NCBI GenBank assembly: GCA_944331935.1
Contig: CALVIV010000004.1
Coordinates: forward strand, 1-49,627
Direction: 5' to 3'
Source of the DNA: an uncultured Bacilli bacterium
Lineage (GTDB): Bacteria; Bacillota_I; Bacilli_A; RF39; UBA660
Length of the DNA stretch: 49,627 nucleotides
Shown here: one piece after another, positions 115-49,627 of the stretch
Position numbering within the stretch: the stretch's first letter is position 1
How the letters are laid out: every line of letters starts with the position of its first letter
Translations under genes and position numbers: made by a program
Notes under the pieces: generated by a model
Seen by the model: only the letters and a program-made list of their open reading frames with translations
Told to the model about the DNA's origin: nothing
Database searches by the model: none

Positions 115-2052
115 TTATTGAACGGATAACTCAAACGGATCTGATTTAGTACCTGTTCCTGAGGTTATTACAACGTTAGATTTTAGATTTAAAGAAGGCC
201 TAATATTTCTTTTAGTGGCTATATCACCAATATAAACTGTTGCTGACATAATAGAATATTCATTAATATAGGAAAGACCAATACTTCCACTATGTGCATA
301 TACCTTAGTCAACATCCAGTAAACACCATTACTATCGCCTATGTCTGATTGACCAGACATTAATTCGCCATATCGAAGTAATCCTATTTTTGCTTCAATA
401 CTATCAGCATATCCTGACATATTTGTGTCTATATACTTTGCTAATTTATATGATCTACCATCTCCTACTTTTCCTAAATACCAAGTCGTACTATCTTCTA
501 TAAAATTAATATAATCATTACCTACATAACTTGTTAGATATTCTTCATTTAAGAACGTACCTATAGTAGTAATACTTGAATAATCTGAATTATAATTGGT
601 ATCGAAAGCAATAGTTTTAAAGACACCATAATCCTTTAACGGTTCAGCACTTACTATTTTTGTTCCTGTTCCATCTTCATGACTTACAATTCTAAATAAG
701 TTATTTTCTCCAACACCAAAAGTTATATATTCTCCACTATATCTGCTTGATAACAATGTTCCTGATAGATTTGTATCACTATCACCTTCCAAACGATATG
801 GATCATTTTCTGTCCCAATACCGTCGATTATCCTTACACCAGATTTTAAGTTTATTGATGGACGTATACCATAATAAATGTAAGAAGAATTTTGATAACC
901 TGTGGCACCAGTAGATTTGATGTAACACACATCGTATGTACCATAAGGTGTTAAAGTCCACCATTGAAGTCCATTATTTAAATAGCCATTAGTACCACCG
1001 TTATTGCTAGACTGATACTCATACATATTTAAAAGTCCTACTGCATCTGTTACTGTTGTTGTGGCATTAGGCCTTGTTATACTTCCTAAATCTCTATCAT
1101 CCATAGTTGCATCCCATACACTATCTGTTACTATAAACTTATCTGGATCTCTTAAATTTCCTAAAAAACCATCTACACTTGTATCATTTAACCATTCTTT
1201 CATATAACTTTCCTCAAAGGCAGAATTACCACTCGAAAATTCAATTACGCTTTCATTCCATTGAGTTACTAACTTAGTTGTCTTTGCTTCATTATTTACA
1301 CTAACCGCTCTCCATAACTTACCACTATACCAGATATAATTATTAGGGTCTTCTCCTGTTATAAAGGTATCTGTTCCATCATCATATTGGTTATCTTCTG
1401 GTATATTAGATAATAGTACTTCACTAGCAGGCCCTGTTGCTACAGGCATCTTATCTCCATCTTTACCATAGACATTTATCTGTACACTAAATTCTAAATT
1501 TCCTCCATCTCCTTGAGGATTATAATCTTCATCTACCCACATTCTAAGTCTATATCTATTACTCTCACTAGAGTTCATACTACTTGTATATAAACTCATC
1601 TCTCCTGATGGTCTTCCTGTATATGTATTTTCACTTGTCTCTTCATTATATGTTTCTGGTGTCATCAATTCTTCTTCACCATCATCTGTTAATCTTGTTA
1701 AATATAACTTTATATTTGAACCATCTATCTTTCTTTCACTAGTTGTTACATCTTTTGCACTTATCTCATAATTAATATTAACATCTCCTGCTATCTTACT
1801 ACTTACTGTAAAATCAAAATACTCCCCTTCTGTTAATCTTACTTTACCAGTTGCATCTGTTGTTGGTAAGGCTCCACTCATACTTATTATATTATCATCT
1901 TCAGTATACTCCATAGTAATAGAACCTGTTGTTATAGAGTTTACTTTAGTACCTAGTCCACTATAACTAAAAGCCGCATAACTTACTCCTATTATTGCAA
2001 TTACCATTATTAATAACACTACTATTATTATAATATTTTCCTTTTTCTTCAT
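115..2052 (-). CDS. Secreted/surface protein with SipW/TasA-class signal peptide and two tandem C-type-lectin-like (DUF6273-like) domains; paralog of the DGR target at 25572..27407
   Basis: Hydrophobic N-terminus ending GVSYAAF; near-identical blocks with 25572..27407 (DTFITGxDPNNYIWYSGKLWRAVSVN); two W-x-LT...(G/N)IRPS(I/L)NLKS motifs; likely start ATG 2052 after AAGGAGA (ORF track starts at 2082). Confidence 0.75.
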   Translation of the reverse strand: MKKKENIIIIVVLLIMVIAIIGVSYAAFSYSGLGTKVNSITTGSITMEYTEDDNIISMSGALPTTDATGKVRLTEGEYFDFTVSSKIAGDVNINYEISAKDVTTSERKIDGSNIKLYLTRLTDDGEEELMTPETYNEETSENTYTGRPSGEMSLYTSSMNSSESNRYRLRMWVDEDYNPQGDGGNLEFSVQINVYGKDGDKMPVATGPASEVLLSNIPEDNQYDDGTDTFITGEDPNNYIWYSGKLWRAVSVNNEAKTTKLVTQWNESVIEFSSGNSAFEESYMKEWLNDTSVDGFLGNLRDPDKFIVTDSVWDATMDDRDLGSITRPNATTTVTDAVGLLNMYEYQSSNNGGTNGYLNNGLQWWTLTPYGTYDVCYIKSTGATGYQNSSYIYYGIRPSINLKSGVRIIDGIGTENDPYRLEGDSDTNLSGTLLSSRYSGEYITFGVGENNLFRIVSHEDGTGTKIVSAEPLKDYGVFKTIAFDTNYNSDYSSITTIGTFLNEEYLTSYVGNDYINFIEDSTTWYLGKVGDGRSYKLAKYIDTNMSGYADSIEAKIGLLRYGELMSGQSDIGDSNGVYWMLTKVYAHSGSIGLSYINEYSIMSATVYIGDIATKRNIRPSLNLKSNVVITSGTGTKSDPFELSVQ

Positions 2053-2168
2053 TTCACTTCTCTCCTTTATTATTTTTCTCACACCATCAAAAAGAACAGA
2101 ATTTTGTTATCCTGCTCTTATATCATAATGAAAGAAAGTAATTTTATTACTTATATATTTACTAACTG

Positions 2169-16969: not shown

Positions 16970-18463
16970 ATGAAAAAAATATTATTATTCTTAACTCTAA
17001 GTTTTATTTATTTAATAAGTTCAACAACTATTGTAAATGCAAGTACTGATTCATTCTATGAAGCTGAATATATTGATAATATTTATATGGTTAGATATGA
17101 TAAAAGTACAGGAACCAAATATTATCAAAAAGCTAGGACTTATAGAAGAAAAAGTGATGGTAAACTAGCTTATTGTCTACAACCTTTTAAAGTATTTAAT
17201 CCAAATAACAGCACTTATGAGACTGTATCATCTCTACCAGACATTAGTGATGAAACATTAGAAAGATTAAGAGATATTATAGGCTTTGGTTACGGATATA
17301 GTGGACGTTCAAATGATTTAAAATGGTATGCTGTTACTCAACTAATGATATGGCAAGCTGTTGAACCTAATAGTGAATTTTATTTCACAGATACCCTAAA
17401 TGGTAATAAAATATCAACTTATGATTATGAAATTAATATTATTAACAGTGCTATAAAAAGTAGTTACATGATGCCAAGTTTTAATAATCAAACATTCTAT
17501 GGTATAGTAGGAAAACCTTTAACTTTTACAGATACTAATAATATAATAGGTTATTTTACTACTCCTGTTAAAGATGTAACTATAAAAAATAATATTGTTA
17601 CGGTTACAAAAGAAAATCCAGGATGTTATGAAGATACTTTTACAAGACTATATAATTACTCAAGTCCAATGTTATTTTACTATAACCCTAATAGCCAACA
17701 TCTTGCAACTATAGGTAGTCCTAATAATAGAGAAGCGAAAGTAAAATATTGTTTCAATGAATTAAAGTTAAACATCAAAAAGATTGATGCAGATACTAAA
17801 ACAACAGATAGTATTGGTGAAGCTTCTCTAAAAGATACAGTATTTACTCTATATAATAAGGACATGGAAAAAATAACAGATTTAACACTAGATGAAAATA
17901 TGGAAACATCTATATCTAGTTCTGATTATGATTTAGAATATGGTACATATTATCTAAAAGAAACTAAGACAGGAACAGGATATTTACCTAATGATAAAAT
18001 ATATGAAATAAAATTTACAGGTGATAAGCCTACAGTAGATTTAACTATTGAAAATAAAGTTATAGAAAAAGAAGTTACTATTAAAAAGTTATATGGAAAT
18101 GGATTACTTATGCAAGCAGAGTCTAATATTACTTTTGAAATCTATGACAAAGATAATAATCTAGTTAAAAGTATAACTACAGATCAAAATGGACTTGCAA
18201 AGATTACTCTTCCTTATGGTCATTATAAAATAGTACAATCTAACACTACTGAAGGTTATACAAAAATAAAACCCTTTGAAATATTTATTAGTGATATAGA
18301 TAAAGATTATTATTACACAATAAATGATTATAAAGAAAAAGAAGAAGTCCCTAAAGAAACTATTTCTATAGAAGTACCAAATACAAGTACTGAAGATAAC
18401 AACTACCACTTATTTAGTTTAATATTACCTACATACTTAATTGTTAAGAAAAAGTTTAGTTAG
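16970..18463 (+). CDS. Sortase-anchored adhesin/pilin with thioester (TED) domain and SpaA/CnaB-type domains
   Basis: Signal peptide; AYCLQP and TQLMIW; GTYYLKETK.GTGY E-box; VPNTS sorting motif and basic tail. Confidence 0.8.
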   Translation: MKKILLFLTLSFIYLISSTTIVNASTDSFYEAEYIDNIYMVRYDKSTGTKYYQKARTYRRKSDGKLAYCLQPFKVFNPNNSTYETVSSLPDISDETLERLRDIIGFGYGYSGRSNDLKWYAVTQLMIWQAVEPNSEFYFTDTLNGNKISTYDYEINIINSAIKSSYMMPSFNNQTFYGIVGKPLTFTDTNNIIGYFTTPVKDVTIKNNIVTVTKENPGCYEDTFTRLYNYSSPMLFYYNPNSQHLATIGSPNNREAKVKYCFNELKLNIKKIDADTKTTDSIGEASLKDTVFTLYNKDMEKITDLTLDENMETSISSSDYDLEYGTYYLKETKTGTGYLPNDKIYEIKFTGDKPTVDLTIENKVIEKEVTIKKLYGNGLLMQAESNITFEIYDKDNNLVKSITTDQNGLAKITLPYGHYKIVQSNTTEGYTKIKPFEIFISDIDKDYYYTINDYKEKEEVPKETISIEVPNTSTEDNNYHLFSLILPTYLIVKKKFS

Positions 18464-21192: not shown

Positions 21193-21478
21193 CTATACCA
21201 AATTAGCAATTTTTTTCACTAAGACCAGTATATTTAGATATTTTATCTACAAAAAATCCATCTTTAAGAAGATTCTTAGCAATTGAATTTTTCTCTTGTC
21301 TACTACCTTGTTCAAGTCCTTCTTCCCTAGCAAGCTTAGTATGGTATTCTATCTTTTATTCTCCTTTTCTCTGGATCATATAGTCCTATATTATCTATAT
21401 CATTTGTTAGTTCATATAATTTATCTCTTACTTCCATTAAGTTTTCATCTCCTTTACTTATTTTTAATATTTCTTTAT
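21193..21478 (-). pseudogene. Frameshifted C-terminal remnant of an Rpn-family gene, cut at the IS21 end
   Basis: Reads KGDENLMEV..YELTNDIDNIGLYDPEKR..IEYH..AREEGLEQG..IAKNLL, homologous to 30202..30504. Confidence 0.8.
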
Positions 21479-21650
21479 TGATAATGCTAAGATAAAAATG
21501 TAGGAAATGACTAATATAAAAATGTCAGAAAACCTACAAAATTATCTTAGCATTTTTCATATGGTTGGTCTAATAATCACGGATAATAAATATCCAGAAA
21601 GGAGGATTATTATAAAGACTATATGTGACGAATTAAGGAAGGAGTTTACA

Positions 21651-22829
21651 ATGTTAAATACTTTTGAAATTAAACCAAACTTTGCATACTTAAGTAGAAA
21701 ATATGACTTGGATCCTAGAACCATAAAAAAATACTATAACGGTTATGATGGCAAAGCAACAACTAGAACTAAAACATCACAGTTAGATAAATATGAAGAA
21801 ATAATAAAAGAAAAGTTATCTTATGATGGTGCCAAGATTTCAGCAGTCTTCTTTTTCCTAAAAAACGAAAAAGGTTATAAAGGAAGTTATAGTAATTTAA
21901 CATATTATGTAAGAAAACACCCAAAAATAAAAAATATAACAACAAAGACCGAAACTCACGTAAGATTTGAAACTAAGGCTGGAGAACAACTACAGTTTGA
22001 TTGGATTGAAAGTATCACACTGATAAGTAAGTATGGAGAAGTATTTGAATTTAATGTTTTTTCAGCAGAGTTAAGTTATAGTAGGATGCATTATTTTAAT
22101 TATAGTGTACATAAAACTAGAGAAGATGTCTTAAACAATTTGATAGGTGCATTTAAGTTTTATGGTGGAGTTACAGAACATGTTTTAACAGATAATATGA
22201 GTAGTATTGTCAGTAATGGAAAATTTTGTAAAGAATTTAAGGCATTTGCAAAAGATTTAGAAATAATTGAAAAGAAGTGCAAAGTAAAACATCCTTATAC
22301 AAAAGGTAAAGTTGAAGTTAGAAATAAGCTTATGAAATGGCTAATACCATATAACTATGAATTTGAAACTGAAGAAGATATAAAACAAATAATTAAAAAA
22401 ATTAATACTGAAGTTAATAATCGAATTAATTCTACTACATCTATGAAACCAATATTACTTTATCAAAAAGAAAAAGAATACTTAAAACCTCTTCCACAAA
22501 ATCAAATATTGGAACATTATATGAACTTAAGTGTCTCAGTAAAAGTTCAAAATACTATGCTAATTGATTATAAAGGTTCAAAGTATTCAGTCCCCCAAAA
22601 GTATATTAACAAAACTTTAAAGCTTAAAGAAATTGATAATAAACTTTATATTTATGATAACACAGAATTAGTTGTTGTACATGAAATAAGTAATAAACCA
22701 ATTAATTATAAAGATGAACATTATATAGATGGTTTAAAAGAAAGTATACCATATAAAACAGATGCTGAAATTGAAGAACTTGCAAAAAAGAACTTAGAAT
22801 TATTTGATCAATTAACAAAAACTAATTAA
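21651..22829 (+). CDS. istA: IS21 transposase IstA
   Basis: RFETKAGEQLQFDW, LTDNM, TKGKVE; start uncertain (ORF track 21507; RBS-supported ATG at 21651). Confidence 0.92.
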   Translation: MLNTFEIKPNFAYLSRKYDLDPRTIKKYYNGYDGKATTRTKTSQLDKYEEIIKEKLSYDGAKISAVFFFLKNEKGYKGSYSNLTYYVRKHPKIKNITTKTETHVRFETKAGEQLQFDWIESITLISKYGEVFEFNVFSAELSYSRMHYFNYSVHKTREDVLNNLIGAFKFYGGVTEHVLTDNMSSIVSNGKFCKEFKAFAKDLEIIEKKCKVKHPYTKGKVEVRNKLMKWLIPYNYEFETEEDIKQIIKKINTEVNNRINSTTSMKPILLYQKEKEYLKPLPQNQILEHYMNLSVSVKVQNTMLIDYKGSKYSVPQKYINKTLKLKEIDNKLYIYDNTELVVVHEISNKPINYKDEHYIDGLKESIPYKTDAEIEELAKKNLELFDQLTKTN

Positions 22830-22846
22830 AAGAGGAGGAATAATAT

Positions 22847-23083
22847 ATGAATAATAATATAATGAAAAAGTTTTGTAAAGAATTACGTTTAAATGCTTGT
22901 CTAAATAGCATAGAGGAATGTTGTAATGCAACTTATGGCTATATCACTGGCGAATATGAAGTCAATGATTTAGATGAACTAGAAGATGCATTATTATGTG
23001 TTCCTGATTATATTAAAGAGGTAAAAGAAATAATAGGAGAAATTATTGATATTTATGAAAAGGAGATGTTAGAAAATGAATAA
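22847..23083 (+). CDS. Small acidic 78-aa ORF between istA and istB
   Basis: Strong RBS GAGGAGG; overlaps the istB start. Confidence 0.7.
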   Translation: MNNNIMKKFCKELRLNACLNSIEECCNATYGYITGEYEVNDLDELEDALLCVPDYIKEVKEIIGEIIDIYEKEMLENE

Positions 23084-23834
23084 CTATAATAAATTACTTA
23101 ATAATTTAGAAACATTAAAATTATTAAAAATGAGAGATAACATAGATGACTATATTGATTTAGTAAATAATAAAAAGAAAGATATAACAGAAGCATTGTA
23201 TGAGCTTACAAATTTAGAAATAGAAATGCTAAAGGAGAAAAGGATACAACATTCAATTCAATTTGCAGGATTTCCATATCAAAAAACATTTGATGATTTT
23301 GATTTTTCATTTCAACCTAATCTAAATAAAGAACAAATATTAGACTTTAAAAACTTACGGTTTATTGAGAATAAAGAAAACATTTTATTTGTTGGTAGCC
23401 CAGGTGTTGGTAAAACACATCTGGCTACTGCAATAGGGTTAGAAAATGCTAAAAATAATCATAGTACCTATTTTATTAATTGTAACGATTTAATTGAAGC
23501 TTTGAAGAAAGCCCATTCTCATAATAGACTAGATGACAAATTAAAAACCTTATCCAAGTACAAATTACTTATTATTGATGAAGTTGGATACTTACCTATT
23601 GATACTGAAGCGGCTAATATGTTATTTCAACTTATTAATAAAAGATATGAAAAAAATTCTACCATAATAACAACTAATAAACCGTTTTCTAGATGGGGTG
23701 AACTATTTGGTGATAATATGATTGCCAATGCTATTTTAGACCGTTTATTACATCATTCTCATGTTATTTCTATAACTGGGAAATCTTATAGGACTAAAGA
23801 TATATTGGTAGATTCGACTGAATCTGGCGATTAG
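23076..23834 (+). CDS. istB: IS21 helper ATPase IstB
   Basis: FDFSFQP, GSPGVGKT, LLIIDEVGY, AILDRLLHH. Confidence 0.95.
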   Translation: MNNYNKLLNNLETLKLLKMRDNIDDYIDLVNNKKKDITEALYELTNLEIEMLKEKRIQHSIQFAGFPYQKTFDDFDFSFQPNLNKEQILDFKNLRFIENKENILFVGSPGVGKTHLATAIGLENAKNNHSTYFINCNDLIEALKKAHSHNRLDDKLKTLSKYKLLIIDEVGYLPIDTEAANMLFQLINKRYEKNSTIITTNKPFSRWGELFGDNMIANAILDRLLHHSHVISITGKSYRTKDILVDSTESGD

Positions 23835-23912
23835 ATTCTGCTAATATAAAAATGTAGTTTTTCCTACATAATTATTTTAGCCAAAAACTACATTTTTATC
23901 TTGACATTATCA

Positions 23913-24023: not shown

Positions 24024-25274
24024 TTATAGTTCACCTACAGCCTCACAAAAACATTCTTCTAACTTTTCTTCATTAGTTCTTAAATATTGTTTAGTTGAAT
24101 CTATATTGCAATGACCTAGAGTTGATGATATAGTTGTTATGGGAACATTATTATTTAGTAGGCTGGTTGCAAGAGTCCTTCTAAATGAATGTATCCCTTT
24201 TTTTTCGTATTTAGATAGATCAATTCCTATTTTATTTGCAACTCGTTTTATTATATGATGAAACGAAAAAGAATCACTTAATTTAATATATGGGAATATA
24301 TGTCTTATAAAAATATAGTCATCTTCTTTCTTAATCTTAAATGGGCTTTCATATTTAATATAATCTATAATTGCATCACCAATATCATTTGTTAAAGGTA
24401 ATTTAACAGGTTTATTAGTTTTCTCTTGAATTATGTATATTGTTTTTTCATTCCAATTTATATCAGACCACTTTAAATGCTTAATATCTATTCCTCTTAA
24501 TCCCAGTCTAGCTGCAATCAAAATCATTGCATAATGTCTTCTACTAGCAATATTAGTTTTGTCTTCCTTTAGGTAGTTTAATATTTTTTCTACATCTTCT
24601 TTTTCAAAAACAGTTGGTATAGAATTTTTAGTATTTCTATTAATGACAGGTATAAGATATGAATAATTAGTTTTTACTAATTCTTCTGTAAATAAATAAT
24701 TGAATAAGCATTTTAAGCTCCAACAAATTCTAATTCTTCTTGATATTGGCTCTGTATTATCATCGATATATTTATTAATAATATCTTTGCTCATTTCTGC
24801 AATGTTTCTAATATTTTTGCTTTCTAAATAATAAAGGAATTGTTTTGTCAATACTTGTTTGTCTTTAATTGTAGTTTCTTTATTATTTAAAATTTCTTTA
24901 CAATATTTTAAGTAATTATCTAATAAATCATCGTAATAATTCGATAAGATTATTCCTCTATTAATTTTAATAGAATTCATATAATTAATAACAAATTCAT
25001 CAATATTAATAAGTACTTTCATAGATTCTACAATTTTATTTTCTTTTTTTGATAATATCTTTTGTTCACTAAAATTAATATTATATTGTTCAAGTAGAAA
25101 AGAATATATAGTTTTATCAGTAAAACTTAATATATCATTATCTTCACAATAATCTTTAAATTGTTTCCAGTACTTTTTAAATTTGTTTACTTTGTCCAAA
25201 GAAAAATTATTATTCATTAACACCTCCTCACTATGATACATTAATTTCCTTAATTCTTGATTCATTTTTATCAC
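24024..25274 (-). CDS. Tyrosine recombinase, RitA-like
   Basis: RLGLRGIDI, GIHSFRRTLAT, LGHCNIDSTKQY catalytic residues; long N-terminal region. Confidence 0.9.
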   Translation of the reverse strand: MIKMNQELRKLMYHSEEVLMNNNFSLDKVNKFKKYWKQFKDYCEDNDILSFTDKTIYSFLLEQYNINFSEQKILSKKENKIVESMKVLINIDEFVINYMNSIKINRGIILSNYYDDLLDNYLKYCKEILNNKETTIKDKQVLTKQFLYYLESKNIRNIAEMSKDIINKYIDDNTEPISRRIRICWSLKCLFNYLFTEELVKTNYSYLIPVINRNTKNSIPTVFEKEDVEKILNYLKEDKTNIASRRHYAMILIAARLGLRGIDIKHLKWSDINWNEKTIYIIQEKTNKPVKLPLTNDIGDAIIDYIKYESPFKIKKEDDYIFIRHIFPYIKLSDSFSFHHIIKRVANKIGIDLSKYEKKGIHSFRRTLATSLLNNNVPITTISSTLGHCNIDSTKQYLRTNEEKLEECFCEAVGEL

Positions 25275-25380
25275 ATCCTTTCTCTTTGAAAAGTTGAATC
25301 AAACTTTTCAAGAGAATATTATATATTATCAGACAAAAAATACAAAAAAAGACAGTAATTTCAACAATTATTGTCTTTTT

Positions 25381-25434
25381 GTCTTATAAATTATTTTGTC
25401 CTATAACGCGAATTATAAGACATGTCTTATAATT
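25381..25434. repeat. Recombinase-site-like array: perfect 24-bp palindrome plus two further TTATA(A/G)GAC boxes
   Basis: AATTATAAGACATGTCTTATAATT (25411-25434); minus-strand TTATAGGAC-N8-TTATAAGAC toward the integrase. Confidence 0.8.
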
Positions 25435-25479
25435 GTTGTTACCATTGTTGTTCACGTTACGCACGAGAGACGTACTGTT
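25432..25479 (-). repeat. Truncated DGR template-repeat (TR)-like fragment
   Basis: Non-coding AAC AGT ACG TCT CTC GTG CGT AAC GTG AAC AAC AAT GGT AAC AAC AAT; aligns to both VRs with mismatches mostly at its adenines. Confidence 0.8.
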
Positions 25480-25531
25480 GATAATTCCCTACTATAATCT
25501 ATTTAAACTAATTATAGCCTAATTTAATTTA

Positions 25532-25569
25532 GTCAGTAAGCTAGAAATTAAAATTTCTAGCTTACTGAC
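25532..25569. repeat. Perfect 18-bp inverted repeat directly after the target stop codon (terminator and/or DGR homing hairpin)
   Basis: GTCAGTAAGCTAGAAATT-AA-AATTTCTAGCTTACTGAC. Confidence 0.85.
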
Positions 25570-25571
25570 AT

Positions 25572-27407
25572 CTAACTACCAAGAGTCACTACAAACGGAT
25601 TAGATTTAGTACCTGTACCTCCGGAAATTGAGACGCTAGATTTTAGATTTATTGACGGCCGGACACCGCTCGCGTTGGTCGAAAGATCGAAGCCCGCGTC
25701 ACTATCGGTGTCCACGCTACGCACGAGAGACGCACTATATAGTGTTAAAGTCCAATAAGATGTATTATTACCATCTCTATCAAATTGTCCGGACATTAAT
25801 TCTCCTAAACGGAGTAAGCCAACTTTAGCATTTGTACTTTTAGCATATCCTGACATATTAGTATCTGTATATTTTGCTAATTTATATGAAGTACCACTTC
25901 CTACAGTTCCTATATACCATGTTGTACTATCTTCTATCATATCACTATATGTACTATCTACATAACTAGTTAAATATTCTCCATTTAAAAATGTACCTAT
26001 TGTATTTGTACTTGAATAATTTGCATTTCTGTCACTATCAAAAGCACTCTTTATAAAACCTCCTTCATTTTTTAATGGTTCGGCACTGACTATCTTTGTC
26101 CCACTACCATTTTCATGACTTACTATTCTGTATAGATTATTCTCACCACTTCCGAAAGTTATATATTCACCGCTATATCTACTTGAAAGTAATGTTCCTG
26201 AAAGTTCTGCATCATTATCTCCGTTTAAGCGATAAGGGTTATCTATTGTTCCATCACCATCTACAATTTTAACGCTAGATTTTAGATTTATTGACGGCCG
26301 GACACCGTCCGCGCGGGCCGAAGCAGATTTGGCCGCGCCACCATTGTAGTTCACGCAACGCACGTCAGACGCACTATATGGTGTTAAGGTCCACCACCAA
26401 AGTCCATTATTTAAATAACCATTACTATATGTTGTTCCTGTATAACTAGATCGATATTCATACATATTAAGTAATCCTACTGCATCGGTTACTGTGGTAG
26501 TTCCATTTGGTCTTGTTATACTTCCTAAACTAGTGGCATCTAATGTTGCATCCCATACTGCATCTGTCACTACAAAGTTCTCATAATCTCTTAAATTACC
26601 TAAGAAACCATCTACTGTGGTATCATTTAACCATTCTTCCATATAACTTCCTTCAAATGCTGTACTATCACTCGAATAAGTAATTGCACTTATATTCCAT
26701 TGTGTTACTAGCTTTGTTGTCTTTGCTTCTTTATTTACAGACACCGCTCTCCATAGTTTTCCACTATACCAGATATAGTTATTAGGGTCGGTACCTGTTA
26801 TGAAAGTATCTACGTCATCATCATATGTACTTCCATCTGGTCCCACATTTGCTGGTATAACATCAGAAGCAGGACCTGTTAACTTAATTTCTTCAAATAA
26901 GTGCCCATTACTAGGTAACGCTAAATCATTATAATCTAGTCCTACATTTACTCCTAAAGTAATTGTTACCTCACTATCTGAATTATTTGTAACTCTTATT
27001 TTATATACATTACTAGAACCTGCCGTTCCACTCATTTCCAAATTAGTTCCTATTTCACTTGATGGTGTATTTAACCCTTCTTCTGTTACATATCCTGCAC
27101 TTACTCCTTCTGGTAAGCTTCCTTCATAATAAAAGTTAAATCTTGCTTTTCTATTATTTGGATTAGATAACGTTACGGTAAACTCTTTAGTCTCGCCCGC
27201 TCCTACTGTTAAAGTATTACCAGCACTTCCATCTACCTCTAAATCATACACTAAGTTACCTGTTATGATACTTATTGCATTCCCCTGTTCTTTGCTTACT
27301 GTAAACATGGCATAAGAAAAATATCCCCCTACTATTAGTAAGGTTATTATAACCATTACTATCATATAAATTTTACTAAAACTTGTTTCTAATAATAATC
27401 TTTTCAT
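25572..27407 (-). CDS. Putative DGR target: secreted protein with SipW-class signal peptide and two tandem C-type-lectin-like domains, each carrying a variable repeat
   Basis: GYFSYAMF N-terminus; two WTLTxYSASxVRxV...GVRPSINLKSSV segments encoded by GC-rich repeats. Confidence 0.85.
   Translation of the reverse strand: MKRLLLETSFSKIYMIVMVIITLLIVGGYFSYAMFTVSKEQGNAISIITGNLVYDLEVDGSAGNTLTVGAGETKEFTVTLSNPNNRKARFNFYYEGSLPEGVSAGYVTEEGLNTPSSEIGTNLEMSGTAGSSNVYKIRVTNNSDSEVTITLGVNVGLDYNDLALPSNGHLFEEIKLTGPASDVIPANVGPDGSTYDDDVDTFITGTDPNNYIWYSGKLWRAVSVNKEAKTTKLVTQWNISAITYSSDSTAFEGSYMEEWLNDTTVDGFLGNLRDYENFVVTDAVWDATLDATSLGSITRPNGTTTVTDAVGLLNMYEYRSSYTGTTYSNGYLNNGLWWWTLTPYSASDVRCVNYNGGAAKSASARADGVRPSINLKSSVKIVDGDGTIDNPYRLNGDNDAELSGTLLSSRYSGEYITFGSGENNLYRIVSHENGSGTKIVSAEPLKNEGGFIKSAFDSDRNANYSSTNTIGTFLNGEYLTSYVDSTYSDMIEDSTTWYIGTVGSGTSYKLAKYTDTNMSGYAKSTNAKVGLLRLGELMSGQFDRDGNNTSYWTLTLYSASLVRSVDTDSDAGFDLSTNASGVRPSINLKSSVSISGGTGTKSNPFVVTLGS
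25633..25739 (-). repeat. Variable repeat VR2 (C-terminal)
   Basis: 107 bp colinear with VR1; 36-bp identical 3' block at 25633-25668. Confidence 0.88.
26272..26378 (-). repeat. Variable repeat VR1 (internal)
   Basis: 107 bp colinear with VR2, 639 bp away; identical block at 26272-26307. Confidence 0.88.
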
Positions 27408-29554: not shown

Positions 29555-30504
29555 ATGAAAAAAAACGAATTAAAAATATTCCAGATAATGTCTCTGATGA
29601 AGAGATTAGAGAGTATATGATTTCTAATAACTTTGTCTATGAAGGAACACTTGATAGTGTCTTTAAAGCTATTATGGGTGGATGTCTTTTATATTTAGGA
29701 GATTTAATATCTAAATTAACTGGACTTGATAAAGATTTTATTATTAAAAACTTTAAAGAACAGAATGTTGAACATAAAATATCGAATGCTCTTGAAAGGA
29801 AAAAAGTATCTGATTTTATCTTTAAATTACCAGGCTATATTATTAACTTAGAATGTAATCGTGGATACTGGGACGGTTTAATAGAGCGAAATGATGCCTA
29901 CTTTGGTAAAATAAAGGGTGAGTTATTAAGTAAAGGAGAAGAGTATAGTAAAAAAATAAAAGTAATTCAGATTAACTTTGATATCTTTGATAACTTTGAA
30001 GAATGTCTAGGAAAAGAGAATATATCTAAATTTTATATGAAGAATAATGAAAATATAATAGAAACAGAAACTAGTGAGAAAATCCATATAGACATGATGA
30101 AAAGTTATAATAAGTATCTTAATGAAGAAGAATTAACTAAATTGGACAAAGAATTAGTAATATTAATGTTAGATGATTATCTAGAAATCAAAAAAATAGC
30201 GAAAGGAGACGAGGAACTTATGGAAGTTGCAAAAAGATTATATGAATTAACAGATAATATTGATAATATAGGACTTTATGACCCTGAGAAAAGAAGAAAA
30301 GAAGAGGAAGCTTTAAAGATTGAGTATCATAGCAATATTGCTAGAGAAGAAGGTATTGAACAAGGTATTGAACAAGGAATTGAACAAGGTGCTAAAGACG
30401 AGAAAAAATCTATTGCAAAGAATCTTCTTAATATAGGTATGCCTATAAAAGATATAGTTAAAGCGACTGGACTTTCTAAAAAGCAAGTAACAATGTTGAT
30501 GTAA
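29555..30504 (+). CDS. Rpn/PD-(D/E)xK nuclease-family protein; RBS-supported start at 29555 is out of frame through an A8 tract (open frame from 29617)
   Basis: DSVFK, SDFI..INLECN, VIQINF, (GIEQ)3 repeat, IAKNLL..TGLS tail. Confidence 0.8.
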
Positions 30505-30792
30505 AGGAGACGAGGAACTTATGGAAGTTGCAAAAAGATTATATGAATTAACAGATAATATTGATAATATAGGACTTTATGACCCTGAGAAAAGAAGAAA
30601 AGAAGAGGAAGCTTAAAAAATAGAATATCATAGTAATATTGCTAGAGAAGAAGGTATTGAACAAGGAATTGAACAAGGTGCTAAAGATGAGAAAAATCTA
30701 TTGCAAAGAATCTTCTTAATATAGGTATGCCTATAAAAGATATAATTAAAGCGACTGGATTATCCAAAAAACAAATAACTATGTTAATGTAA
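30503..30792 (+). pseudogene. Tandem duplicate of the Rpn C-terminal module (copy of 30202..30504) with a nonsense change and a frameshift
   Basis: Near-identical sequence; TTA>TAA, one fewer 12-bp GIEQ unit, A6>A5. Confidence 0.9.
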
Positions 30793-48856: not shown

Positions 48857-49594
48857 CTATCTACGTATTCCAGATGGTGATTGTATTGGAAGATCCATAT
48901 CATTTGCACGAGTTCCATCTCTTTTCTGATTATCATACATAGATCCTGGCTCATTATACATTTCTGAAAACATTTCTCTTAACTCTTGCATAGAATTTTT
49001 TTTGTGGTTCCGAATTGCCTCTTTTTGTGAAAGTAATGATAATTCTTTTAAAACATCTGAATTAAAACAAATATTATTTGAATCAATATGAGTTTGTGAA
49101 ACAAATTGTTTTAAGTTAGTTACAATTCTACTATTAAAAGATGAATCAACTTGAGGTAAAACCGCTAATAAATGTCCCATTCTAAAAACATAATTATAAT
49201 GATCTGACATAATTTGCATATAATCTTTGTTGCTATCATCTTTTAAAGACGAATTAAAGTATTCATTCAATGGAATATTTTTTCCTTCGTGACTAACAGT
49301 ATAACTTGGATTTTCTTTAATCCAATCTAATACACTTTTTTCAAATGCTTTTATACAATTATTACACATTATACCAGTATAGCTATCTTGTCCTTGTAAT
49401 AATTTATTCTCACTTGCATAACCAACCCAATTATTTATATTTCCAGTCAAAATGTGTGGAGTACCAATTTTAGATATTATTTCAGGAATATTTTTTTCAA
49501 TTTGTGATAATACAGATAAAGTATTATCTAATTGCTCGGTAGAAGAATATATGGTGCTAGTATAGATATTGGGACACAAAATTTTACACATCAT
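48857..49594 (-). CDS. Hypothetical protein (start uncertain near the window edge)
   Basis: 245-aa ORF; no recognised motif. Confidence 0.55.
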   Translation of the reverse strand: MMCKILCPNIYTSTIYSSTEQLDNTLSVLSQIEKNIPEIISKIGTPHILTGNINNWVGYASENKLLQGQDSYTGIMCNNCIKAFEKSVLDWIKENPSYTVSHEGKNIPLNEYFNSSLKDDSNKDYMQIMSDHYNYVFRMGHLLAVLPQVDSSFNSRIVTNLKQFVSQTHIDSNNICFNSDVLKELSLLSQKEAIRNHKKNSMQELREMFSEMYNEPGSMYDNQKRDGTRANDMDLPIQSPSGIRR

Positions 49595-49627
49595 GATATA
49601 ATATATATCACTTGTGAAAGGAGTTGT

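What the first reader, a model, noticed from the sequence alone, without database searches (positions are those of the whole stretch)
25432..27407. DGR-type hypervariable surface protein with two variable repeats and a truncated template, but no reverse transcriptase in the window
Seen: two colinear 107-bp GC-rich repeats within one AT-rich gene (26272-26378, 25633-25739). They differ at 14 codons, and 13 of these keep the third base (C or T), e.g. TGC/AGC, TAC/ACC, CGC/AAC. They share an identical 36-bp 3' block. Downstream lie a perfect 18-bp hairpin and a non-coding AAC-rich copy. Over 39 nt (25438-25476) that copy differs from VR2 at 7 sites (6 at A) and from VR1 at 8 sites (6 at A). Established: this matches adenine-specific mutagenic retrohoming in DGRs, where AAY template codons diversify C-type-lectin folds. 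Inference: a chromosomal, non-phage secreted protein has two independently diversified binding heads and is now either frozen or served in trans.
Basis: partly seen in the sequence, partly recalled or inferred. Interest (0 to 1): 0.9.

Follow-up and report, generated by a model that had tools for sequence, protein, structure and literature searches.

The report
Retroelement-diversified surface protein with broken template
A chicken-gut bacterium carries a surface protein with two binding heads that a diversity-generating retroelement once rewrote, but a mobile element has cut its template, so this copy is probably frozen.

Summary
Gene 27407..25572(-) encodes a 611-aa protein with two tandem C-type-lectin-like (DUF6273) domains. 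Each ends in a GC-rich variable repeat (VR1 26272-26378, VR2 25633-25739).

Downstream lie an 18-bp hairpin, a conserved leader and the first 39 nt of an AAC-rich template repeat (TR). Its differences from the VRs fall on TR adenines: 6 of 7 for VR2 and 6 of 8 for VR1. This is a diversity-generating retroelement (DGR) target.

The TR stops at a palindrome that marks the end of a recombinase-in-trio (RIT)-like element. A relative (L074) carries the whole element, with 89-bp inverted ends, splitting a complete TR at the same point. In the window only ritA survives. An IS21 sits after it, and the TR 3' half and the conserved RNA that follows intact TRs are gone.

No full cognate TR was found in the 1.48-Mb assembly, which is 92% complete. 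The VRs are therefore most likely frozen.

The machinery persists elsewhere. DGR-type reverse transcriptases lie on contigs C78 and C1. A sister locus on C20 has an intact TR with 24 of 24 mismatches at adenines. The genome holds about 20 paralogues.

This is a known kind of system with unusual details.

The parts
25572..27407 (-). DGR target gene (variable protein), 611 aa, intact ORF
   Evidence: ORF list. Pfam DUF6273 at 42 bits, cut-off 23.5. More than 3000 homologues.
27279..27407 (-). N-terminal hydrophobic helix (aa 1-43), probable membrane anchor or signal-anchor
   Evidence: Sequence MKRLLLETSFSKIYMIVMVIITLLIVGGYF. Helix 2-43 in a low-confidence model. Inference only.
26898..27245 (-). 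Beta-sandwich (Ig-like) domain, aa 55-170
Evidence: Weak Fn3-like and FixG_C Pfam hits below cut-off.
26223..26879 (-). C-type-lectin-like DUF6273 domain 1 (aa 177-395)
   Evidence: Pfam hit on aa 248-377. Model pLDDT 96.4. Z 18.4 to the DUF6273 N-terminal domain of 9qa6. Z 7.6 to Lcl, 6.5 to TvpA, 5-6 to many C-type lectins.
26272..26378 (-). VR1, at the C-terminal end of domain 1
   Evidence: Hypervariable columns aa 348-367 in 73 homologues.
25575..26210 (-). C-type-lectin-like domain 2 (aa 400-611)
   Evidence: Model residues 230-419 match C-type lectin domains at Z 5-6.2. 65% identity to the paralogue.
25633..25739 (-). VR2, at the C-terminal end of domain 2
   Evidence: Hypervariable columns aa 561-580.
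25532..25569 (-). Perfect 18-bp hairpin just after the stop codon. It has no T-run.
   Evidence: No terminator-like site found. A hairpin of different sequence stands at the same place in C20, L074, L066 and L027.
25484..25519 (-). Conserved leader that precedes every TR of this family (..CTATAATTAGTTTAAATAGA-TTATAGTAGGGAAT)
   Evidence: The same leader stands before the full TR of C20 and before the remnant on C41. It also stands before 18 TRs or TR remnants in relatives. Promoter role is an inference: the consensus scan found none here.
25438..25476 (-). TR remnant: the 5' 39 nt of the template repeat
   Evidence: Adenine-specific differences from both VRs. Only this part matches the C20 TR module, query positions 15-97 of 401.
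25404..25441 (.). Junction palindrome (perfect 24 bp at 25411-25434; 19-nt arms 84% complementary): TR 5' half joined to the end of the RIT-like element
   Evidence: I2. The same 24-mer occurs once in each of 5 genomes searched. In all five it lies at a TR 5' piece.
25324..25412 (-). Terminal inverted repeat of the RIT-like element (the only copy in this genome)
   Evidence: 92% identical over 89 nt to the L074 repeat. In L074 the two ends are 96.6% identical over 89 nt.
24024..25274 (-). ritA-like tyrosine recombinase, 416 aa
   Evidence: Pfam Phage_integrase at 105.7 bits. 84% identical to the first gene of the L074 trio. No ritB or ritC orthologue in the assembly: best hits 22-33% identity.
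21479..23912 (+). IS21-family element (istA 21507-22829, small ORF 22847-23083, istB 23076-23834) with 74-bp inverted ends
   Evidence: Pfam IstB_IS21 at 254.6 bits and Mu-transpos_C_2. Inverted ends 21479-21552 and 23839-23912, 77% identical.
21211..21474 (-). 3' remnant of a PD-(D/E)XK (PDDEXK_2) transposase-like gene, cut by the IS21
   Evidence: 73% identical to the 3' ends of the full genes at window 30183-30719 and C41 11501-11777. The syntenic locus of the closed genome keeps a similar remnant before clpB.
115..2082 (-). Paralogue (655 aa) whose two equivalent segments are AT-rich (GC 0.33 and 0.30), not VR-like
   Evidence: 65% identity over 443 aa..

Best explanation
The gene encodes a membrane-anchored protein of a chicken-gut Bacilli bacterium (Candidatus Onthousia-like). 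Behind an Ig-like domain it carries two tandem C-type-lectin-like DUF6273 domains.

Each domain ends in a variable repeat written by DGR mutagenic retrohoming from one ~80-nt AAC-rich template. That template lay just downstream of the gene, behind a hairpin and a conserved leader.

In this lineage the gene, its TR and a conserved ~190-nt RNA form a module. The module occurs either next to Avd and RT or far from them.

In the window the module is broken.
1. A recombinase-in-trio (RIT)-like element integrated into the TR within or beside the core TAACGCGAA.
2. The sequence beyond ritA was then lost: ritB, ritC, the distal inverted repeat, the TR 3' half and the downstream RNA. An IS21 now sits there.

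The remaining 39-nt TR piece lacks the 3' end that matches the VR 3' end. The two VRs can therefore no longer be rewritten from their own template and are frozen alleles.

The enzyme side is still in the genome: an intact Avd-like/RT pair on C78 and a second DGR on C1. A sister gene on C20 keeps an intact TR.

Shown here:
- the anatomy and the adenine bias;
- the fold;
- the split TR in a relative;
- RT presence.

Inferred:
- the order of events;
- loss of activity;
- which RT served this TR.
For: DGR signature
- The TR remnant differs from VR2 at 7 sites (6 at A) and from VR1 at 8 sites (6 at A).
- Against the full TR of a syntenic relative (L061), each VR shows 24 mismatches in 78 nt, 17 of them at A (p = 5.7e-6). 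Homology ends at ..CCGGC, as at a TR/VR boundary.
- Sister locus C20: an 80-nt TR with 24 A. Its two VRs show 13 of 13 and 11 of 11 mismatches at A.

Fold
- Model pLDDT 96.4, pTM 0.94.
- Both domains match C-type lectins, and domain 1 also matches TvpA. Both VRs lie at the domain ends.

Family-wide variation
- 24 of the 40 most variable columns fall in the 72 VR residues, of 611 in all. Mann-Whitney p = 7.6e-8.

RT
- C78 carries a 316-aa RT with YMDD and IGNYTSQ.
- Its best solved relative is the 328-aa RT of 8ub7 (E = 2.9e-19).
- Its best phage relatives include phage nd12 and ANMV-1.
- In L066 a 93%-identical RT lies in cis: target gene, TR, Avd-like gene, RT. The DNA is 90.7% identical to C78 over 1741 nt.
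- C1 has an Avd above the NCBIfam cut-off (81.9 against 80 bits).

Breakage
- L074 holds three overlapping tyrosine recombinase genes between 89-bp inverted ends.
- There the TR 5' half lies on one side of the element. The TR 3' half plus the conserved RNA lie on the other.
- The window has the same junction, one inverted end and the ritA homologue only.
- IS21 inverted ends lie about 110 nt after the ritA stop.
- No second copy of the VR 3' block or of the conserved RNA was found on C4. No cognate TR was found in the assembly.

Assembly check
- The junction also stands in an independent assembly. A 340-nt contig of run X4 covers 25323-25662 with 0 differences.
Against: - The assembly is 92% complete and lies in 83 contigs, many of which break inside paralogues. 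A full cognate TR could be unassembled.
- Only contigs, not raw reads, could be laid. Neither stasis nor current variation within a population was measured.
- The identical VR2 contig in runs X1, X2 and X4 comes from one study. One of those runs may be the source sample, so this is weak support.
- The window's junction reads GGTAACAACAATT, where three relatives read GGYAAYRCGAATT. Its history may therefore differ in detail.
- The Avd-like ORF on C78 is weak: bAvd-like E = 0.002, 19 bits, cut-off 40.
- No experiment shows that the C78 RT acts on detached TRs.
- Covariation support for the downstream RNA is thin: 3 of 58 predicted pairs show compensatory changes in 7 very similar sequences.
Confidence: 0.8

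Rival explanations
1. The two VRs are still being diversified in trans. A full-length cognate TR exists in an unassembled part of the genome, or in part of the population. It is used by the C78 (or C1) reverse transcriptase.
For: - The genome is 92% complete and fragmented at this repeat family.
- DGR-type RTs are present.
- TR modules far from any RT exist. The C20 module has no RT in the ~950 bases left downstream on its contig. Its orthologue in the closed genome G151 lies at 76 kb, while DGR-type RT matches lie at 371, 649 (remnant) and 1408 kb.
- Published DGRs act on remote targets (PMC5758913 and PMC10907252, passages read).
Against: - No second match to the VR 3' block or to the TR body was found in 1.48 Mb.
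- The C20 TR is not cognate: 38 and 43 mismatches in 80 nt, with only 16 and 18 at A.
- The VRs carry 1 and 2 non-adenine differences from their own TR remnant in 39 nt. The C20 VRs carry 0 in 80 nt.
- VR2 assembled as one clean contig in three runs (weak).
Confidence: 0.13
2. The truncated TR is an assembly artefact: a chimeric join at a repeat.
For: - Contigs of this assembly end in shared 77-mers.
- The gene family is highly repeated.
Against: - A Logan contig of run X4 spans 25323-25662 with no difference.
- The same TR-palindrome-inverted-repeat junction stands in four other genomes, one of them a closed long-read chromosome.
Confidence: 0.03
3. This is not a DGR. The repeats come from an internal domain duplication kept variable by ordinary selection or by gene conversion among about 20 paralogues. 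The AAC-rich piece is a decayed third copy.
For: - The genome holds 35 such domain ends.
- Tandem domains are the rule in this family: most of the 150 listed representatives match the domain in two or more stretches.
Against: - The adenine bias is seen in three independent comparisons.
- The non-coding, AAC-rich TR has a conserved leader and a conserved downstream RNA.
- RT and an Avd-like gene are linked in cis in L066.
- Variation is confined to codons that are AAY in the TRs.
Confidence: 0.02

Closest known systems
Bordetella phage BPP-1 DGR (Mtd, TR, Avd, bRT)
   Same: - Adenine-specific TR-to-VR differences.
- An AAC/AAT-rich TR.
- The VR at the C-terminal end of a C-type-lectin fold.
- A GC-rich VR 3' end and a hairpin downstream.
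- The RT's best solved relative is the 328-aa RT of 8ub7. That this entry is bRT is recalled, not shown by a call.
- Mtd (1yu0) matches the model at Z 5.0.
   Different: - Chromosomal, not phage.
- Two VRs in one protein.
- The TR lies directly behind the target gene, with its own leader and a ~190-nt conserved RNA.
- The RT is not adjacent.
- Here the TR is broken.
DUF6273 DGR targets of gut phages (tentaclins of phages nd4 and nd12; Faecalibacterium prophages Lelie, CP11, Roos, Pioen)
   Same: - Same Pfam domain, described as C-type-lectin-like (PMC10743442). In the Faecalibacterium prophage targets the VR maps to its C-terminus (PMC11792537). Passages of both papers were read.
- The nd12 RT is among the best phage matches of the C78 RT, at 35% identity.
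   Different: - No tblastn match of the window protein to any of 50,697 phage records at E <= 1e-5.
- Here there is a cellular gene family of about 20 members with tandem domains and a membrane anchor.
Incomplete or orphaned DGR loci (Treponema denticola leftover targets; Thiohalocapsa PB-PSB1 loci shaped by transposons)
   Same: - Target genes whose VRs keep the adenine pattern although RT or TR is missing or disrupted.
- Mobile elements reshape the loci.
- Action in trans is proposed (PMC4891356 and PMC10907252, passages read).
   Different: - Here the break lies inside the TR itself.
- It was made by a tyrosine-recombinase trio element at a defined point.
- Each target has its own TR.
N-terminal DUF6273 domain of the Thomasclavelia ramosa IgA peptidase (PDB 9qa6)
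   Same: It is the closest solved fold: Z 18.4, rmsd 2.7 over 191 residues, 23% identity. Foldseek gives E = 1.5e-9.
   Different: - That domain is fused to an M64 peptidase.
- In the passages read it is not described as DGR-diversified.
Recombinase-in-trio (RIT) elements
   Same: In relative L074:
- three adjacent, overlapping tyrosine recombinase genes;
- an element of about 3.4 kb;
- inverted repeats plus a palindrome at the ends.

This fits the description in PMC3414803 (passages read).
   Different: - RITs are described mainly in Proteobacteria, without a defined target site. Here the host is Bacilli and the element lies inside DGR TRs.
- The window keeps only ritA and one end.

Membership tests
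Diversity-generating retroelement (target/TR/RT system) | A VR and a TR that differ almost only at TR adenines | tested here: met
   - 6 of 7 and 6 of 8 over the 39 nt that remain.
- 17 of 24 against a relative's full TR.
- Sister locus: 24 of 24.
Diversity-generating retroelement (target/TR/RT system) | A complete TR whose 3' end matches the VR 3' end | tested here: not met
   - In the window the TR ends after 39 nt at the RIT junction.
- No other copy was found in the assembly.
- The feature is met at sister locus C20.
Diversity-generating retroelement (target/TR/RT system) | A DGR-clade reverse transcriptase | tested here: met
   - None in the window.
- In the genome: C78 (316 aa) and C1 (split by a group II intron).
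- In cis with this gene family in L066.
- No RT phylogeny was built.
Diversity-generating retroelement (target/TR/RT system) | Accessory protein Avd next to the RT | tested here: inconclusive
   - C1: NF033474 at 81.9 bits, cut-off 80.
- C78: the 124-aa ORF gives only bAvd-like E = 0.002, 19 bits, cut-off 40.
- No useful PDB sequence match.
Diversity-generating retroelement (target/TR/RT system) | The VR lies in the ligand-binding end of a C-type-lectin (or Ig) fold | tested here: met
   Model pLDDT 96.4. C-type lectins, TvpA, Lcl and Mtd are among the matches. VR1 is model residues 168-203 and VR2 is 381-416, each at a domain end.
Diversity-generating retroelement (target/TR/RT system) | Ongoing hypervariation of the VR within a population | not testable with these tools
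   All 19 runs listed are kept as contigs, not raw reads.
Pfam DUF6273 (PF19789) | Score above the gathering cut-off | tested here: met
   - 42 bits against 23.5, on aa 248-377 (domain 1).
- Domain 2 is not matched by Pfam, but it is a repeat of domain 1.
Recombinase-in-trio (RIT) element | Three adjacent overlapping tyrosine recombinase genes (ritA, ritB, ritC) between inverted ends | tested here: not met
   - The window has the ritA homologue and one inverted end only.
- The feature is met in relative L074.
- Assignment to the RitA, RitB and RitC families was not tested.
IS21 family | istA and istB genes between inverted ends | tested here: met
   IstB_IS21 at 254.6 bits. IstA-type transposase C-terminal domain. 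74-bp inverted ends.

The most novel reading that the evidence does not exclude
The RIT-like element uses the DGR template repeat itself as its attachment site.

Support:
- Its inverted ends finish in TTCGCG, the complement of the CGCGAA inside the conserved TR stretch GGTAACGCGAACAACAAT.
- In all five genomes searched, its junction palindrome occurs once, and each time at that same point of a TR. The TRs belong to at least three different target-gene subfamilies and genomic contexts.

If so, a tyrosine-recombinase trio would be a natural, possibly reversible, off-switch for DGR modules. These loci would also give the filled-site against empty-site proof of RIT mobility that PMC3414803 (2012) says was still missing.

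A wider reading is that this lineage runs a fleet of self-contained 'target gene + TR + RNA' modules on one or two shared RTs.
Probability: 0.4. Interest if true: 0.7.

Novelty: new member of a known kind. Interest (0 to 1): 0.5.

Why it matters
As a DGR target it is ordinary in kind. DUF6273 C-type-lectin targets, remote targets and decayed DGR loci are all in print.

It is useful for four reasons.
- It is a clean natural example of how a DGR module dies: a cut inside the TR. An intact sister module in the same genome and a cis cassette in a relative serve as controls.
- It documents a large cellular family (about 20 genes in a 1.5-Mb genome) of double-headed variable surface proteins in an uncultured chicken-gut lineage.
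- It shows that TRs here are separate small RNA genes that can work, if at all, only with an RT encoded elsewhere.
- It points to a tyrosine-recombinase trio element that lands in TRs. This is testable.

Tried and rejected
- Read mapping for VR micro-diversity: only Logan contigs were on offer. They are confounded by paralogues and cannot show rare variants. I therefore draw no conclusion on absence of variation.
- First structure run: the 73 close homologues gave pLDDT 41 and were useless for the lectin domains. It was replaced by a diverse alignment.
- Foldseek on the two-domain model gave one clear hit only. The wider aligner was needed.
- Rfam: the only match is a below-threshold hit of a plastid 3'UTR family on the hairpin (34.9 bits, gathering score 52.7). 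I take it as chance. No known RNA family covers the TR module.
- The consensus scan found no promoter or terminator at the leader or the hairpin.
- PDB sequence searches with the two Avd-like proteins gave nothing meaningful.
- The TR 5' pattern was not found in 150 other genomes of the family, with up to 3 mismatches allowed.
- The DGR RT motif (I/L)GxxxSQ is recalled. I could not find it in PMC5758913 or PMC8632793 with the terms tried.
- I considered that the C20 TR might serve the window VRs. Rejected.
- I considered that C78 joins the right end of the window contig. The two share a 77-80-nt end with three other contigs, so the link is ambiguous.
- The claim that RIT insertion into a TR is not in print rests on two searches only. 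The library lacks most subscription journals. Supplements were not opened.
Full report
WHAT IS THERE

The window is the whole of contig C4 of a 1.48-Mb, 83-contig, 27.9% GC genome, 92% complete. The one homologue that carries a name comes from Candidatus Onthousia excrementipullorum, a chicken-gut Bacilli lineage. The runs that hold this stretch best are chicken-gut metagenomes.

The finding sits in an intact 611-aa ORF, 27407..25572(-).
- The two 107-nt repeats differ at 22 bases in 14 codons, and 13 of those codons keep the third base.
- They share a 36-nt identical 3' block.
- An 18-bp perfect hairpin follows the stop codon.
- A 39-nt AAC-rich non-coding copy lies at 25438-25476.
  - It differs from VR2 at 7 sites, 6 of them at its own adenines (p = 0.0017).
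  - It differs from VR1 at 8 sites, 6 at adenines (p = 0.0056).

THE PROTEIN

Pfam places DUF6273 on aa 248-377. With a diverse 69-sequence alignment, AlphaFold2 models aa 177-611 at pLDDT 96.4 and pTM 0.94 as two similar domains.

A search of 48,161 solved chains gave these matches:
- the DUF6273 N-terminal domain of the Thomasclavelia ramosa IgA peptidase first (Z 18.4);
- the Legionella Lcl C-terminal domain (Z 7.6);
- the Treponema DGR target TvpA (Z 6.5);
- dozens of C-type lectin domains (Z 5-6) on both halves of the model;
- Mtd (Z 5.0).

VR1 and VR2 lie at the C-terminal end of domain 1 and domain 2. DUF6273 is already described as a C-type-lectin-like DGR target in gut phages (PMC10743442 and PMC11792537, passages read). 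The N-terminus is a hydrophobic helix followed by a beta-sandwich (low confidence).

IT IS A DGR TARGET

Four lines beyond the 39-nt remnant support this.

1. A sister locus on C20 has the same layout: gene with two VRs, hairpin, the same leader, then a full 80-nt TR with 24 adenines. Its two VRs differ from that TR at 13 and 11 sites, all 24 at adenines.

2. Locus L061 of another genome is syntenic, with the ctpA-type peptidase and orf164 upstream, and has a full TR. The window's VR1 and VR2 each differ from it at 24 of 78 sites, 17 of them at adenines (p = 5.7e-6). Homology stops at ..CCGGC.

3. In an alignment of 73 homologues, 24 of the 40 most variable columns fall in the 72 VR residues. 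They interleave with invariant scaffold residues.

4. The enzymes exist.
   - The PF00078 scan found five RT matches in the genome and none on C4.
   - Two are DGR-like. C78 holds a 316-aa RT with YMDD and IGNYTSQ, preceded by a weak Avd-like ORF.
   - C1 holds an RT next to a curated-threshold Avd.
   - The C78 RT's best solved relative is the 328-aa RT of 8ub7. Its best phage relatives include phage nd12 and ANMV-1.
   - In L066 a 93%-identical RT lies in cis behind a two-VR gene of this family, its TR and an Avd-like gene. That DNA is 90.7% identical to C78 over 1741 nt.
   - A more distant relative (G060, L024) has accessory ORFs, an Avd-like gene, RT, TR and a target gene in a row.

WHY THE TR IS SHORT

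The TR stops at a palindrome: a perfect 24 bp at 25411-25434, with arms of 19 nt. An 89-nt sequence and a 416-aa tyrosine recombinase follow.

Locus L074 of another genome explains this.
- Behind the same leader and TR 5' half comes the same palindrome.
- Then comes an 89-bp terminal repeat.
- Then come three overlapping tyrosine recombinase genes. The one furthest from the palindrome is 84% identical to the window's.
- Then comes the inverted copy of the 89-bp repeat (96.6% identical).
- Directly after ..CCTATAACGCGAA come the missing TR 3' half (CAACAAT...GGCGTTCGGC) and the conserved downstream sequence.

This element of about 3.4 kb fits the published description of recombinase-in-trio (RIT) elements (PMC3414803, passages read). 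The outer end of its repeat (TTCGCG) is the complement of CGCGAA in the conserved TR stretch GGTAACGCGAAC. The crossover is therefore likely to lie in that core; this is an inference.

The window keeps the junction, one terminal repeat (92% identical to L074's) and ritA, in the opposite orientation to L074. No ritB or ritC orthologue and no second terminal repeat is in the assembly.

About 110 nt after the ritA stop an IS21 begins, with inverted ends at 21479-21552 and 23839-23912. Beyond it lies the 3' remnant of a PDDEXK_2 gene, and then clpB.

In the closed genome G151 the syntenic locus (ctpA, HTH gene, target gene, clpB) has the hairpin, a stub of the leader, no TR at all and a similar PDDEXK_2 remnant. 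Both lineages thus lost this TR, but in different ways.

The window junction is not an assembly artefact.
- A 340-nt contig of run X4 spans it without a difference.
- The same 24-mer occurs once in each of five genomes searched. In all five it lies at a TR 5' piece.

CONSEQUENCE

Intact TRs of this family are followed by about 190 nt of conserved sequence ending in a terminator-like hairpin and a T-run. This sequence was seen in C20, L029, L053, L061, L066, L070, L084 and the distal part of L074.

The predicted fold has a long TTCCTTTTA/TAAAAGGAA stem. Only 3 of 58 pairs show compensatory changes in 7 sequences, so the structure is a proposal. By analogy with the spacer RNA of the BPP-1 DGR (recalled), it may recruit the RT.

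The window matches only positions 15-97 of the 401-nt C20 module, which is the leader and the TR 5' part. No other copy of the VR 3' block or of a cognate TR is in the assembly, and the C20 TR is not cognate.

The VRs carry 1 and 2 non-adenine differences from the remnant in 39 nt, against 0 in 80 nt at C20. I conclude that VR1 and VR2 are frozen. About 0.13 is left for a missing TR, because the assembly is incomplete and only contigs could be laid.

CONTEXT

The genome holds about 20 paralogues. tblastn found 23 places of 200 aa or more at 48% identity or more on 15 contigs, and some may be halves of one gene. It holds 35 domain ends of this type. It also holds 13 GC-rich VR-like islands in paralogues of this family, plus one in a distant homologue on C3.

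Only three TR leaders were found: full on C20, cut on C4, and almost nothing left on C41.

Among 80 loci from related genomes, 18 show a leader (counted by eye).
- 7 have a full TR.
- 3 have the RIT junction.
- 1 has only the inner part of the RIT terminal repeat.
- 4 run into the sequence that precedes PDDEXK_2 genes.
- 3 are cut otherwise.

A stricter script found 5 full, 3 RIT, 3 PDDEXK_2 and 4 other.

The family was found in 62 of 151 genomes sampled from the bacterial family. It has 1202 clusters at 50% identity, and most listed members match the domain in two or more stretches.

In print are two or three VRs in one target gene (PMC11661182, passage), remote targets (PMC5758913) and transposon-shaped incomplete DGRs (PMC10907252).

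VERDICT

This is a real DGR target of a known kind with a broken template. It is a new member of a known kind. The more novel leads, TR-specific RIT integration and the multi-TR DGR on C1, lie beside the finding rather than in it.

Noticed in passing
Outside the window: G000 contig C1, locus L006 (C1:22000-36000), L006 2846-11093: A second, complete DGR.
- A 626-aa target gene with a C-terminal VR.
- Six tandem units of about 354 nt. Each holds a TR-like segment of about 120 nt that shares its 3' end with the VR; five of the six also begin GCGCGGCGGT as the VR does. The AAC-rich bodies differ between units.
- The unit next to Avd is 91% identical to the VR over 122 nt, with 9 of 11 mismatches at A.
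- The RT gene is interrupted after YVRYMD by a group II intron with its maturase.
- The orthologue in the closed genome G151 (L115) has an uninterrupted 354-aa RT.

This may be a library of alternative templates for one VR.
   Followed up: partly
L112 (G000:C20) 713-972(-), with L029, L053, L066, L070, L084, L074: About 190 nt of conserved non-coding sequence follows every intact TR and ends in a terminator-like hairpin and a T-run. No Rfam family matches it. It is a candidate RT-recruiting part of the TR RNA.
   Followed up: partly
Window 29617-30504 and 30183-30792; G000 C41 11500-12405; C78 359-1249; L116: PDDEXK_2 (PD-(D/E)XK transposase-like) genes recur next to DGR parts.
- One lies directly after the RT on C78 and after the RT remnant in G151.
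- One lies directly after TR stubs on C41, L054, L063, L076 and L098.
- The window copy is followed by a 97%-identical 176-nt direct repeat of its own 3' end.
   Followed up: partly
L116 (G151:C1:647000-652000): In the closed relative genome, one locus holds, in order: a target gene, a TR 5' piece, the RIT junction palindrome, a ritC remnant, the last 81 aa of a C78-type RT (90% identical) and a PDDEXK_2 gene. This looks like a cis cassette destroyed by the same kind of element.
   Followed up: partly
Window right end 49546-49625 and C78 1-79: The RT contig C78 and the window contig share a 77-80-nt end sequence. The same sequence also ends contigs C10, C63 and C70. The RT module may lie next to the window, but the assembly graph is ambiguous.
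   Followed up: no
L074 11258-13247: Two further tyrosine recombinase genes lie directly after the split TR module. This may be part of a second trio that runs off the locus.
   Followed up: no
Window 16970-18463 (+): A 497-aa protein with thioester (TED) and SpaA prealbumin-like domains. It is a probable covalent adhesin or pilin-type surface protein.
   Followed up: no
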